Positions 1-2,080 of a stretch of 64,000 nucleotides of DNA are shown here, one piece after another. The stretch's first letter is position 1. Each line of letters starts with the position of its first letter. The stretch lies in assembly GCF_041248615.1 (NCBI RefSeq), contig NZ_CP158426.1; one strand, written 5' to 3'. Source of the stretch: Escherichia coli. Its GTDB lineage: Bacteria; Pseudomonadota; Gammaproteobacteria; Enterobacterales; Enterobacteriaceae. The notes under the pieces are model-generated. The model was not told where the DNA came from. It ran no database searches and was given only the letters and a program-made list of their open reading frames with translations. The translations under genes and the position numbers were made by a program.

Positions 1-1075
1 TACCGCGCGCGGTTATCTCGATCAGGCCAAATCGCGCCCTAACCTGACCATTCGTACTCACGCCATGACCGATCATATCATTTTTGACGGCAAACGCGCG
101 GTGGGCGTCGAGTGGCTGGAAGGCGACAGCACCATTCCAACCCGCGCGACAGCGAATAAAGAGGTGCTGTTATGTGCAGGTGCGATCGCCTCTCCGCAGA
201 TCCTGCAACGTTCCGGCGTGGGTAGCGCTGAACTGCTGGCGGAGTTTGATATTCCGCTGGTGCATGATTTACCCGGCGTCGGCGAAAATCTTCAGGATCA
301 CCTGGAGATGTACCTGCAATATGAGTGCAAAGAACCGGTTTCCCTCTACCCTGCCCTGCAGTGGTGGAATCAGCCGAAAATCGGTGCGGAGTGGCTGTTT
401 GGCGGCACCGGCGTTGGTGCCAGCAACCACTTTGAAGCAGGCGGATTTATTCGCAGCCGTGAGGAATTTGCGTGGCCGAATATTCAGTACCATTTCCTGC
501 CAGTGGCGATTAACTATAACGGCTCGAACGCAGTGAAAGAGCACGGCTTCCAGTGCCACGTCGGATCGATGCGCTCGCCAAGCCGTGGGCATGTGCGGAT
601 TAAATCCCGCGACCCGCACCAGCATCCAGCGATTCTGTTTAACTACATGTCGCACGAGCAGGACTGGCAGGAGTTCCGCGACGCAATTCGCATCACCCGG
701 GAGATCATGCATCAACCGGCGCTGGATCAGTATCGTGGCCGCGAAATCAGCCCCGGTGTCGAATGCCAGACGGATGAGCAGCTCGATGAGTTCGTGCGTA
801 ACCACGCCGAAACCGCCTTCCACCCGTGCGGTACCTGCAAAATGGGTTATGACGAGATGGCAGTGGTTGACGCCGAAGGCCGCGTACACGGGCTGGAAGG
901 CCTGCGCGTGGTAGATGCGTCAATTATGCCGCAGATTATCACCGGCAATTTGAACGCCACGACTATTATGATTGGCGAGAAAATGGCGGATATGATTCGC
1001 GGGAAGGATGCGTTGCCGAGGAGCACGGCGGGATATTATGTGGCAAATGGGATGCCGGTGAGAGCGAAAAAATGA
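1..1075 (+). CDS. betA: Choline dehydrogenase (GMC oxidoreductase), 5'-partial; only the C-terminal ~337 aa lie in the window
   Basis: ORF 65..1075 translation has the GMC oxidoreductase C-terminal region (HPCGTCKMG...); the reading frame is open back to the window edge, so the true start is upstream of the window. Confidence 0.9.
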
Positions 1076-1110
1076 GTCGTGATGTGAACTGACTCAGGAA
1101 CCTATCAGAT

Positions 1111-1171
1111 TGAGAGTTACCGTTCTACTATGAGGACCGAATCCTTATATAAAACACTGAGGTAACTCTCA
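1111..1171. repeat. Perfect 11-bp inverted repeat (tgagagttacc / ggtaactctca) with a ~39-nt spacer, between betA and ykgH
   Basis: Read directly from the sequence; the arms are exact reverse complements. Function unknown. Confidence 0.5.
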
Positions 1172-1287
1172 TGCTTCATATCCAGTATTCATGATGCTGG
1201 CTTTTTGCTGATATTTACCCTGAACATTCCTGATACAGACTATTAATACAATCTTATCTGCGACAGATTTTATTTTCTGGATATATT

Positions 1288-1838
1288 ATGAGTGAACAAA
1301 TCAAACAGGATATCGATCTGATTGAGATTTTATTTTATCTGAAGAAAAAGATTCGTGTTATCCTTTTTATTATAGCTATCTGTATGGCAATGGTGCTGTT
1401 GTTTCTGTATATCAATAAAGATAATATAAAAGTGACTTACAGTCTAAAAATAAACCAAACAACACCAGGCATACTTGTTAGCTGTGATAGCAATAATAAC
1501 TTTGCCTGTCAGACCACAATGACTGAAGATGTTATTCAGCGAATTACTACATTTTTTCACACCAGCCCAGATGTCAAGAACAGAGAAATAAAACTGGAAT
1601 GGTCAGGAGATAAGAGAGATTTACCAACTGCTGTACAAAAATGATATACCTGACCAGGAACTGGTCATTGTATCCGAACGGTGATGGCTGTGTCACTATA
1701 AGCTCACCAGAAATAAAAAATAAATATCCTGCTGCCATTTGCCTGGCTCTGGGATTTTTTCTAAGCATTGTGATTTCTGTAATGTTTTGCCTTGTCAAAA
1801 AAATGGTAGATGAATACCAACAAAACTCTGGGCAGTAA
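1288..1838 (+). pseudogene. ykgH: ykgH-like membrane protein, apparently split by a +1 frameshift at an A5 run (about 1637..1641)
   Basis: ORFs 1288..1644 and 1641..1838 each contain one hydrophobic helix; adding one A to the A5 run fuses them into a single ~184-aa product (...TAVQK-MIYLTRNW...). Could be a real frameshift, a sequencing error, or two short overlapping genes. Confidence 0.5.
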
Positions 1839-2080
1839 TAAACAGCATTCTGATAGAGAGTGCCTGTATATAGCTGAAGTGACAATGACTGGGAAGGGAA
1901 CCCGTTTTCAGGAATGGATGCCTGTCTTTTTCACTGTAAATATCCTGGCATTACTAATGCCAGGATATTTAAAGAAGAGGAGCATAACCATGACAGAACG
2001 GGGTTAAGTCAGGTTGTCCTTAACGCTATTCACAACCTCGTATGCCGACTTCAGGTTTATGTCCAGACTTCATATCTCTC

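What the first reader, a model, noticed from the sequence alone, without database searches (positions are those of the whole stretch)
1111..1171. Perfect 11-bp inverted repeat with a long loop downstream of betA
An 11-bp stem with a ~39-nt loop is atypical for an intrinsic terminator (no T-run, large loop). It could be a protein-binding palindrome or a structured RNA element in the betA 3' region or ykgH leader.
Basis: seen in the sequence. Interest (0 to 1): 0.3.

Follow-up and report, generated by a model that had tools for sequence, protein, structure and literature searches.

The report
Fossil insertion-sequence end after betA
The inverted repeat after betA is the surviving left end of a decayed IS481-family mobile element, whose hairpin originally covered the ribosome-binding site of its transposase gene; it is an ordinary molecular fossil, not a betA or ykgH control element by origin.

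Summary
The perfect 11-bp inverted repeat (1111-1121 / 1161-1171) is real. On its own it is at chance level for a 64-kb window, and the '39-nt loop' is wrong: the interior is paired, giving one compound hairpin (-26 kcal/mol, z -5.2). It is not a terminator. A canonical one sits at 1182-1209.

Window ~1069-1180 is the first ~112 bp of a 1,201-bp IS481-family insertion sequence, the same lineage as the E. coli ylbG pseudogene. Intact multi-copy versions exist in some E. coli strains and plasmids. A covariance model built only from intact copies hits the window once (1084-1185, 55.6 bits, E ~1e-9).

In intact copies the right arm holds the transposase Shine-Dalgarno and the A of ATG. The stem is kept in 58 of 59 diverged copies, with compensatory double substitutions. 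Including the left arm raises the RBS opening cost from ~5 to 13-19 kcal/mol.

Most likely original role: translational occlusion of the transposase, probably alongside an antisense RNA (near-threshold Rfam psRNA2 hits on the opposite strand).

In this window the transposase and the ~6-kb PAI-X island were deleted at 1180/1181, leaving a fossil in the betA 3' UTR. The arms are oddly well conserved among E. coli alleles, which is unexplained. Low interest.

The parts
1..1075 (+). 3' part of betA (choline dehydrogenase); stop codon TGA at 1073-1075
   Evidence: ORF 65-1075. Annotated betA in K-12 and other genomes at the homologous place.
1069..1180 (+). Relic of the left end (IS positions ~1-112) of a 1,201-bp IS481-family insertion sequence of the ylbG type
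   Evidence: BLAST to the intact IS: positions 39-112 = window 1107-1180, 85%. Gapless fixed-register match of IS positions 1-27 to 1069-1095 is 18/27, P ~2e-5. Covariance model R1, trained on intact copies only, hits 1084-1185 at 55.6 bits, E 1.4e-9; it is the only significant hit in the window (a 16-bit reverse-strand echo of the palindrome has E 0.86).
1069..1094 (+). Decayed terminal inverted repeat (IRL; intact form TGTATTAGTCGCGACTTGATCTGACA); it contains the betA stop codon
   Evidence: Alignment A3, and the intact IRL/IRR defined.
1111..1121 (+). Left arm of the hairpin, TGAGAGTTACC; its GTTACC half belongs to the extended terminal repeat shared by both IS ends
1122..1160 (+). Interior of the hairpin (not a free loop): inner helices around a CCGAA terminal loop; the most variable part among E. 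coli alleles
   Evidence: Fold. 15 of 40 columns are variable among 11 alleles.
1161..1171 (+). Right arm, GGTAACTCTCA; it overlaps the former transposase Shine-Dalgarno (GAGG, 1159-1162) and the A of the former start codon (ATG, 1171-1173)
   Evidence: Alignments with ylbG, plasmid and intact copies, where an annotated IS481-family transposase CDS starts at this ATG.
1171..1194 (+). Remnant reading frame, ATG CTT CAT ATC CAG TAT TCA TGA; only the first 10 nt (1171-1180: codons M, L, H and the first base of the fourth codon) derive from the transposase gene
1180..1181 (.). Deletion junction: in about 40% of E. coli genomes the rest of the decayed IS (to position ~165) plus the ~6-kb PAI-X island (ipbA/fimX, hyxR, hyxA, hyxB) lies between these two bases
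1182..1209 (+). Terminator-like hairpin CCAGTATTCATGATGCTGG followed by CTTTTTG; the probable real end of the betA transcript in island-free strains
   Evidence: Terminator scan. In island-bearing genomes it lies downstream of hyxB.
1288..1644 (+). 5' part of ykgH; in this strain it is broken into ORFs of 118 aa and 65 aa

Best explanation
Window ~1069-1180 is a fossil of the left end of an IS481-family insertion sequence. The IS inserted at the very end of betA, so betA's stop codon now lies in the decayed terminal repeat.

In the living element, the 11-bp arms and the paired interior form a ~24-bp hairpin in the transposase 5' leader. The right arm contains the Shine-Dalgarno sequence, the spacer and the A of the AUG. 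Any transcript that carries the left arm, including read-through from a neighbouring gene, has its ribosome-binding site locked in the stem, so transposase is not translated.

The same palindrome is probably also the body of an antisense RNA made from a promoter in the first 36 nt of the transposase gene. That would be a second layer of repression.

In this window a deletion at 1180/1181 removed the transposase gene, the antisense promoter and the adjacent PAI-X island. The hairpin therefore has nothing left to regulate. It is now simply part of the betA 3' UTR, just upstream of the real terminator at 1182-1209.

What is shown: identity, homology, conservation, covariation and computed occlusion. 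What is inferred: translational repression, the antisense RNA, and lack of a present-day function.
For: Identity:
- A second copy, 84-85% identical, abuts ylbG and a plasmid gene.
- ylbG matches NCBIfam NF033577 'IS481 family transposase' with E 2e-25, below that model's full-length cut-off (89.9 v 224 bits) because it is a 123-aa fragment; intact copies are annotated IS481 family transposase.
- An intact 1,201-bp copy has 26-bp terminal repeats, a TCTTATC target duplication and a 346-aa transposase, and the strain that carries it holds 6 places matching the element.
- The window matches IS positions 39-112 at 85% and positions 1-27 at 18/27.
- The covariance model hits the window at 55.6 bits, E 1.4e-9.

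Direction of evolution: island-bearing genomes keep the homology to IS position ~165, so the island-free allele is a deletion derivative.

Function in the intact IS:
- The hairpin is present in 58 of 59 distinct copies from Enterobacterales, Vibrionales, Alteromonadales, Moraxellaceae and Betaproteobacteria. Median 24 bp and -25.5 kcal/mol.
- RNAalifold recovers exactly the outer stem.
- 95.9% of cells are paired.
- There are compensatory double changes, G-C to A-U in 3 sequences and A-U to C-G or G-C in 2, with only one uncompensated change at these pairs.
- Pairing falls to about 50% when partners are slid by one column.
- These changes are not mirrored at the IS right end.
- SD and AUG lie in the right arm. 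The opening energy is 13-19 kcal/mol with the left arm and about 5 without it.

Precedent: the IS200 tnpA leader stem-loop sequesters the SD and blocks 30S binding (PMC4513863). ISPpu9 is similar (PMC8450116).
Against: - No transcript start or 3' end has been mapped for this IS or for this spacer.
- The promoter scan found no acceptable sigma-70 promoter at the IS left end. It is therefore unknown whether the native mRNA includes the left arm. The hairpin could give constitutive attenuation, or protection against read-through only.
- The arms are more conserved in sequence than pairing alone requires, so other constraints overlap: the SD/start context, the extended terminal repeat and the antisense RNA.
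- Covariation cannot tell the sense strand from the antisense strand. Wobble evidence is 1 G-U against 3 C-A cells.
- Among 11 E. coli relic alleles the arms vary at 1 of 22 columns against 28 of 75 for the rest of the relic, p = 0.003. That is unexpected for a functionless fossil.
Confidence: 0.8

Rival explanations
1. The palindrome's main role in the living IS is as an antisense small RNA (psRNA2-like). It would be transcribed from the minus strand, starting near the transposase ATG and running through the hairpin to the IS end. It would pair with the transposase leader and block translation, like art200 of IS200 or RNA-OUT of IS10. The hairpin would be that sRNA's own stem.
For: - Rfam RF02349 psRNA2 matches the minus strand of the IS left end in all 11 intact copies tested, at 31-61 bits and E 1e-5 to 1e-12. 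Its consensus is the reverse complement of the outer stem, the inner stem and IRL.
- Synonymous variation is suppressed at codons 3-5 (CAT 60/60, ACT 62/63) and codons 10-12. On the minus strand these read TTGTGT-16 nt-TAGTAT, with a predicted start at the ATG, which is where the psRNA2 model begins.
- IS200 precedent.
Against: - All hits are below the family gathering score of 65.
- The source paper for psRNA2 could not be found, so I could not verify that it is a detected transcript or on which strand.
- The putative promoter is weak (7 of 12) and was not picked up by the scan.
- This reading is not exclusive of SD sequestration; in IS200 both act.
- In the window the deletion junction destroys the -10 and removes the -35, and there is no Rfam hit there. 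At most it is a dead copy.
Confidence: 0.35
2. The relic hairpin has been co-opted by the host. As a stable 3'-UTR structure it would protect betIBA mRNA from 3' exonucleases or assist termination. This would matter most in PAI-X-bearing strains, where no canonical terminator follows betA.
For: - Arms vary at 1 of 22 columns against 28 of 75 for the rest of the relic among 11 alleles, p = 0.003.
- The relic is retained in well over 90% of 5,426 complete E. coli genomes.
- It lies in the betA 3' UTR in the sense orientation.
- In island-bearing loci the sequence after the hairpin has no terminator-like site nearby.
Against: - The 11 alleles fall into a few haplogroups and were not analysed on a tree.
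- TGCTTCATA, outside the stem, is equally conserved (1 of 9), so pairing is not the only thing preserved.
- One strain has an uncompensated arm change and one has an IS1 in the loop.
- A K-12 3'-end dataset lists no 3' end in this spacer, although bet expression was probably low in those conditions.
- There is no U-tract.
Confidence: 0.2
3. The arms are conserved as double-stranded DNA sites for the transposase (part of an extended terminal repeat), not as an RNA hairpin.
For: - Both IS ends share GATCTGACA...GTTACCnGTTTT...GGTGTC.
- The variable base after GTTACC co-varies between the left and right ends.
- The left arm TGAGAGTTACCGGTT is 93% complementary to the subterminal right end.
Against: - Only the GTTACC half of the left arm lies in that shared repeat.
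- The compensatory changes (L035, L057/L061, L068, L082) are in the left-specific GAGA half. They are matched in the SD-ATG arm, not at the IS right end, which stays GACAGTTACC.
- This reading does not explain why the SD-ATG region should be complementary to the left arm.
Confidence: 0.1
4. It is a chance palindrome, a host transcription-factor site, a MITE or a small-protein gene.
For: - An 11-bp perfect repeat is expected about once per shuffled window.
- An 11-codon ORF (ATGAGGACC...TAA, 1130-1165) lies in the interior.
Against: - Homology to an IS end with E ~1e-9.
- No right-end repeat or target duplication around the relic, and only two chromosomal sites (betA and ylbG) in most genomes, so it is not a MITE.
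- The interior ATG is lost in K-12 and other alleles, so it is not a conserved ORF.
- A 39-bp spacing is unsuitable for a dimeric factor.
Confidence: 0.02

Closest known systems
ylbG pseudogene of E. coli K-12 (truncated IS481-family element next to mnmH/selU) and the intact 1,201-bp IS481-family IS found in some E. coli chromosomes and IncF-type plasmids
   Same: Same IS lineage. There is a collinear match from the terminal repeat through the hairpin to the first codons ATGCTTCATA, and the arms are identical.
   Different: The window copy keeps only about 112 bp, has no transposase codons beyond the third, is more diverged (85%), and is fused to the ykgH-proximal terminator by a deletion. No public source gives this IS a specific name.
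IS200 tnpA 5'-UTR stem-loop with antisense art200 (PMC4513863)
   Same: An inverted repeat in the IS left end whose 3' arm contains the Shine-Dalgarno sequence. For IS200 it has been shown to block 30S binding. An antisense sRNA is encoded across the same palindrome.
   Different: A different IS family (IS200/IS605, HUH transposase) with no sequence relationship. For the IS481-type element nothing has been tested experimentally. The resemblance is one of mechanism, not of membership.
Rfam RF02349 psRNA2 ('Proteobacterial sRNA psRNA2')
   Same: Its consensus sequence and structure are the reverse complement of this IS lineage's left end: outer stem, inner stem and terminal repeat.
   Different: It is on the opposite strand. 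Intact relatives score 31-61 bits, under the 65-bit cut-off. The window relic gives no hit at all. The Rfam entry is typed as an sRNA gene, not as part of an insertion sequence.
Fold-back or read-through protection hairpins of other IS elements such as IS10 and IS50 (from my own knowledge of the Mahillon and Chandler 1998 review; not checked here)
   Same: An upstream sequence near the IS end pairs with the transposase ribosome-binding site, so externally initiated transcripts are not translated.
   Different: In those elements the native promoter is known to lie between the two arms. Here the promoter is unmapped.

Membership tests
Left end of the ylbG-type IS481-family insertion sequence | Sequence-plus-structure match to a model built from intact copies | tested here: met
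   Model R1 (59 intact copies, none from the betA locus) hits window 1084-1185, full length, 55.6 bits, E 1.4e-9. It is the only significant hit in the 64 kb (a 16-bit reverse-strand echo has E 0.86).
Left end of the ylbG-type IS481-family insertion sequence | Terminal inverted repeat (TGTATTAG...GATCTGACA) at the correct distance from the hairpin | tested here: met
   Gapless, same spacing (IS position 43 = window 1111). 18 of 27 identities, P ~2e-5. The repeat is decayed.
Intact, autonomous IS481-family insertion sequence | Transposase gene, right-end inverted repeat and target-site duplication | tested here: not met
   Homology stops at IS position 112 (window 1180). No other match to the IS anywhere in the window. 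This is a relic, not an element.
SD-sequestering leader hairpin of a transposase mRNA (mechanistic class; IS200 is the tested example) | Shine-Dalgarno and start codon lie inside one arm of a conserved stem | tested here: met
   GAGG at 1159-1162 and ATG at 1171-1173 against the right arm at 1161-1171. The same arrangement holds in 58 of 59 intact copies.
SD-sequestering leader hairpin of a transposase mRNA (mechanistic class; IS200 is the tested example) | Pairing maintained by compensatory substitutions | tested here: met
   Two pairs show double changes in 5 sequences. 95.9% of cells are paired, against about 50% when partners are slid.
SD-sequestering leader hairpin of a transposase mRNA (mechanistic class; IS200 is the tested example) | The stem reduces ribosome binding or translation | not testable with these tools
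   Only computed: opening energy 13-19 against about 5 kcal/mol.
Rfam RF02349 psRNA2 | Score at or above the curated gathering threshold (65 bits) | tested here: not met
   The window gives no hit at E up to 10. Intact relatives score 31.4-61.1 bits on the minus strand.
Intrinsic (Rho-independent) terminator | G+C-rich stem with a short loop, followed directly by a U-run | tested here: not met
   It is not reported by the terminator scan, and UGCUUCAUA follows the stem. The neighbouring hairpin at 1182-1200 plus CTTTTTG does qualify.
MITE (miniature inverted-repeat transposable element) | Both terminal repeats of a parent IS, a flanking target duplication, and many dispersed copies | tested here: not met
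   The two arms are internal to the left end and are not the IS termini. There is no right end. The median is 2 sites per genome (betA and ylbG).

The most novel reading that the evidence does not exclude
The fossil hairpin has been kept by selection in E. coli as a functional 3'-UTR structure of the bet operon mRNA, acting as a stabiliser or termination aid. That would be an exaptation of a transposase translational operator. It would explain why the arms are nearly invariant while the rest of the relic is about 37% variable among alleles.
Probability: 0.2. Interest if true: 0.45.

Novelty: new member of a known kind. Interest (0 to 1): 0.3.

Why it matters
The main value is for annotation.

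- It explains an unannotated conserved palindrome in the betA-ykgH spacer of E. coli, including K-12, as an IS relic.
- It shows that the betA stop codon and, in some strains, the last six BetA codons are IS-derived.
- It defines the left boundary of the uropathogen-associated PAI-X island (fimX/ipbA-hyxRAB) as a decayed IS481-family element.
- It shows that the island-free allele is a deletion derivative.
- It indicates that the Rfam sRNA family psRNA2 corresponds to an insertion-sequence end.
- It indicates that a widespread IS481-family lineage carries a conserved RBS-occluding hairpin, with a possible antisense RNA. This is a testable regulatory design of a kind already known from IS200 and IS10.

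None of this overturns current understanding.

Tried and rejected
- **Rfam on the window:** scanning 800-2200 at E up to 10 found nothing relevant.
- **Promoter scans:** the window spacer and the intact IS gave no convincing promoter for the transposase or within the hairpin. The tempting idea of a native promoter inside the loop (TTGATA-N15-17-TACAAA/TATACA) stays unverified. I do not rely on it.
- **Megablast trap:** the first search suggested that the hairpin is absent from island-bearing genomes. That was an artefact of divergence. Blastn and alignment showed it is present, with the island inserted 3' of it.
- **IS3-family or MITE idea:** I first suspected this from the TG...CA arms. It was rejected once ylbG matched the IS481 family and the true termini were found.
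- **K-12 3'-end mapping:** the supplement of PMC7815308 lists no 3' end in the spacer, and the supplement of PMC6061677 is not held. This is uninformative.
- **Literature searches:** searches for ylbG/IS481, for an IS481-family leader hairpin and for the origin of psRNA2 found nothing specific. PMC5054453 (PsRNA server) is unrelated to psRNA2.
- **IS name:** public protein names give only 'IS481 family transposase'.
- **Small upstream helix:** the helix around CTTGAAAAG is only 73.5% paired, so I left it as a side observation.
- **Not attempted:** betA loci of other Escherichia or Enterobacteriaceae species.

Full report
**1. Observation**

The window opens in the 3' part of E. coli betA (stop at 1073-1075). 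ykgH starts at 1288. The reported repeat is exact: TGAGAGTTACC at 1111-1121 and its complement at 1161-1171, 39 nt apart.

Taken alone it is not remarkable. Perfect repeats of at least 11 bp with a 3-60 nt spacer occur 0.96 times per dinucleotide-shuffled 64-kb window. 54% of shuffles have at least one, and the real window holds nine.

The description 'long loop' is wrong. The 39 nt pair among themselves, giving one compound hairpin with a 5-nt terminal loop. Window 1105-1177 folds at -26.2 kcal/mol against -11.6 +/- 2.8 for shuffles, z = -5.2. The hairpin has no T-run. A separate terminator-like hairpin with a T-run lies at 1182-1209. Rfam gave no relevant hit in the window.

**2. A first clue and a trap**

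Megablast of 1050-1320 against 5,426 complete E. coli genomes gave full-length matches in 3,252 genomes. About 2,000 others matched only from window 1178 onward. Those genomes carry hyxA and hyxB next to ykgH.

A full locus shows the ~6-kb PAI-X island (ipbA/fimX, hyxR, hyxA, hyxB) between betA and ykgH (the island is described in PMC7545054). The hairpin is not missing there. It is present with identical arms and a diverged interior, and the island begins just 3' of it:

- Left junction: ...CATGCTTCATA | GTGACAACC
- Right junction: ...CTATAAACA | TCCAGTATTC
- This corresponds to window 1180/1181.

**3. What it is**

A sensitive search with 1095-1181 found a median of two places per genome, up to nine, and 117 places on plasmids. 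The extra copies are 84-85% identical over the whole hairpin. They sit immediately upstream of, and overlap by 10 bp, a gene annotated 'helix-turn-helix domain-containing protein': ylbG in K-12-lineage chromosomes and a pseudogene on plasmid NZ_CP010187.1.

- ylbG matches NCBIfam NF033577 'IS481 family transposase' with E 2e-25, below that model's full-length cut-off because it is a 123-aa fragment, and Pfam HTH_29.
- An intact element (L009, NZ_CP148401.1; that genome holds six places matching the element) is 1,201 bp long. It has 26-bp terminal repeats beginning TGTATTAG, a TCTTATC target duplication and a 346-aa transposase.
- The hairpin occupies IS positions 43-103. The right arm contains the last two bases of the Shine-Dalgarno GAGG, the spacer and the A of the transposase ATG.
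- The window matches IS positions 39-112 at 85% (1107-1180).
- In the same gapless register, IS positions 1-27 match at 18/27, P ~2e-5.

The relic therefore spans about 1069-1180, and betA's stop codon lies inside the decayed terminal repeat.

A covariance model built only from intact copies finds one significant hit in the whole window: 1084-1185, full length, 55.6 bits, E 1.4e-9. It also finds the corresponding relics in K-12, O157 and other alleles.

In island-bearing genomes the homology continues to IS position ~165 at 75%. The island-free allele, as in this window and in K-12, must therefore be a deletion derivative. An island insertion could not begin by chance with the next bases of the same IS.

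**4. How the hairpin works in the living element**

A scan of one genome per species returned 80 loci of this IS lineage, with transposases 78-99% identical. Hosts include Enterobacterales, Vibrionales, Alteromonadales, Moraxellaceae, Betaproteobacteria and others. In an alignment of 59 upstream regions the arms are almost invariant.

- RNAalifold's consensus structure is exactly the outer stem.
- Pair counting gives 95.9% paired cells.
- There are compensatory double substitutions at two pairs. G-C changes to A-U in Acinetobacter (2 sequences) and Moraxella. A-U changes to C-G in Methylotenera and to G-C in Alkanindiges. Only one change at these pairs is uncompensated, in a degenerate Arsenophonus copy.
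- Pairing collapses to about 50% when partners are slid by one column.
- Folding each copy alone pairs the arms in 58 of 59. The median is 24 bp and -25.5 kcal/mol, and 54 of 59 are a single unbranched hairpin.
- The free energy needed to expose SD through AUG+5 is 13-19 kcal/mol when the transcript includes the left arm and about 5 kcal/mol when it starts after it. This holds in three diverged copies and in the relic.

I infer a translational operator that keeps the transposase ribosome-binding site closed in any leader that contains the left arm, including read-through from outside genes. This design is proven for IS200 (PMC4513863) and reported for ISPpu9 (PMC8450116). From my own knowledge it is also described for IS10 and IS50.

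The native promoter is not identifiable. I cannot say whether the element's own mRNA escapes the hairpin.

**5. Overlapping constraints and rivals**

*DNA-level constraint.* Both IS ends share an extended repeat (GATCTGACA, then GTTACCnGTTTT...GGTGTC). At the left end it is interrupted by a ~21-nt insert. The GTTACC half of the left arm belongs to this repeat, so a DNA-level (transposase-binding) constraint probably overlaps the RNA one. The compensatory changes, however, lie in the left-specific GAGA half. They are matched in the SD-ATG arm, not at the IS right end. This favours pairing within one strand.

*Antisense RNA.* Rfam RF02349 psRNA2 hits the minus strand of the left end of every intact copy tested, at 31-61 bits against a gathering score of 65. 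Its consensus is the reverse complement of the outer stem, the inner stem and the terminal repeat. Codons 3-5 and 10-12 of the transposase show almost no synonymous variation. On the minus strand they read TTGTGT-16 nt-TAGTAT, with a predicted start at the ATG. An antisense RNA in the manner of art200 or RNA-OUT is therefore a credible second layer. I could not find the psRNA2 source paper. Covariation cannot assign the strand.

**6. The relic today**

In this window the deletion removed the following:

- the transposase gene beyond its first 10 nt;
- the -35 element and most of the -10 element of the putative antisense promoter;
- the PAI-X island.

The hairpin is now transcribed, if at all, as part of the betA 3' UTR, 10 nt ahead of the terminator-like hairpin.

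One observation is not explained by 'dead fossil'. Among 11 E. coli alleles (9 haplotypes) the arms vary at 1 of 22 columns, against 28 of 75 for the rest of the relic, Fisher p = 0.003. This could reflect exaptation as a 3'-end stabiliser, hairpin-templated repair, or non-independence of the alleles. I leave it open and rate exaptation at about 0.2.

A K-12 3'-end dataset shows no end in this spacer, but the bet operon was probably poorly expressed in those conditions.

**7. Comparison with what is known, and verdict**

The window feature is a member of the ylbG-type IS481-family left end. The model hit and the collinear terminal repeat are both met. It is not an intact IS, a MITE, a terminator or an Rfam psRNA2 member; the defining features of each were tested and not met. 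It works like, but is unrelated to, the IS200 leader stem-loop.

The kinds involved are all known: IS relics, RBS-occluding leader hairpins and IS-encoded antisense RNAs. The specific relic is not among the features annotated at this locus in the K-12 RefSeq record. No source names this IS. I found no description of its hairpin.

Verdict: a real and correctly located repeat whose interpretation changes from 'betA/ykgH regulatory palindrome' to 'fossil of a transposase translational operator'. Low to moderate interest (0.3). Novelty: a new member of a known kind.

Noticed in passing
window 1180-1181; L006 6057-12147: Presence/absence polymorphism of the ~6-kb PAI-X island (ipbA/fimX, hyxR, hyxA, hyxB) exactly at this junction in about 40% of E. 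coli genomes. Its left border is the continuation of the decayed IS481-family element, so the island-free allele is a deletion derivative. Strain SW07099 has the island-type hairpin haplotype but no island.
   Followed up: partly
window 1061-1094: The betA stop codon (1073-1075) lies inside the decayed IS terminal repeat. Alleles with one extra base in the A-run (O157, EC42405, 33F4, 24A16) are annotated with a 1,689-bp betA instead of 1,671 bp, so BetA reads six more codons into IS-derived sequence.
   Followed up: partly
window 1288-1838: ykgH is broken in this strain into ORFs of 118 aa (1288-1644) and 65 aa (1641-1838), against 222 aa in K-12. The alignment to K-12 ykgH shows a large non-alignable internal segment. 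Several other strains also carry ykgH pseudogenes (internal stop in O157, IS3 insertion in FDAARGOS_1300).
   Followed up: partly
window 1937-1971: A strong, perfect hairpin with ~15-bp arms (TAAATATCCTGGCAT...ATGCCAGGATATTTA) between the convergent ykgH and ykgG genes. It looks like a bidirectional terminator. A K-12 dataset lists an 'orphan' 3' end at 324578 (minus strand) near the homologous place.
   Followed up: no
L039 484-698, L072 516-699, L009 1458-1607 (minus strand): The Rfam sRNA family RF02349 psRNA2 corresponds to the reverse complement of the left end of this IS481-family lineage. The family appears to be an insertion-sequence end catalogued as an sRNA.
   Followed up: partly
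L009 1616-1645 and homologous positions in L011-L090: Synonymous sites of transposase codons 3-5 (CAT ACT AAC) and 10-12 (AAA CAC AAA) are almost invariant across hosts, while neighbouring four-fold sites are saturated. On the minus strand they form TTGTGT-16 nt-TAGTAT, a candidate antisense promoter.
   Followed up: partly
L009 1508-1565 and 2650-2708: The two IS ends share about 60 nt of extended inverted repeat. The left end carries a ~21-nt insert (CnnnnCTTGAAAAGnTGAGA) that contains a small variable helix around an almost invariant TTGAAA. That helix is 73.5% paired and two of its pairs show double changes. The motif TCTGACA occurs three times, at both ends and at the stop codon.
   Followed up: partly
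L098 (NZ_CP069707.1 3762320-3763150): In strain E41 an IS1A element is inserted inside the hairpin interior (after ...GGGGGACCGA), splitting the two arms.
   Followed up: no
window 1104-1118 and 1316-1330: Direct repeat ATCAGATTGAGAGTT / ATCTGATTGAGATTT joins the left flank and left arm of the hairpin to codons 10-14 of ykgH. In the island-bearing allele 14 nt are identical (E 0.012 in a small search). It is possibly chance.
   Followed up: no
window 7871, 8953, 31076, 33589, 46853, 55325, 61508: Seven further perfect inverted repeats of at least 11 bp with short spacers elsewhere in the window. They were not examined.
   Followed up: no
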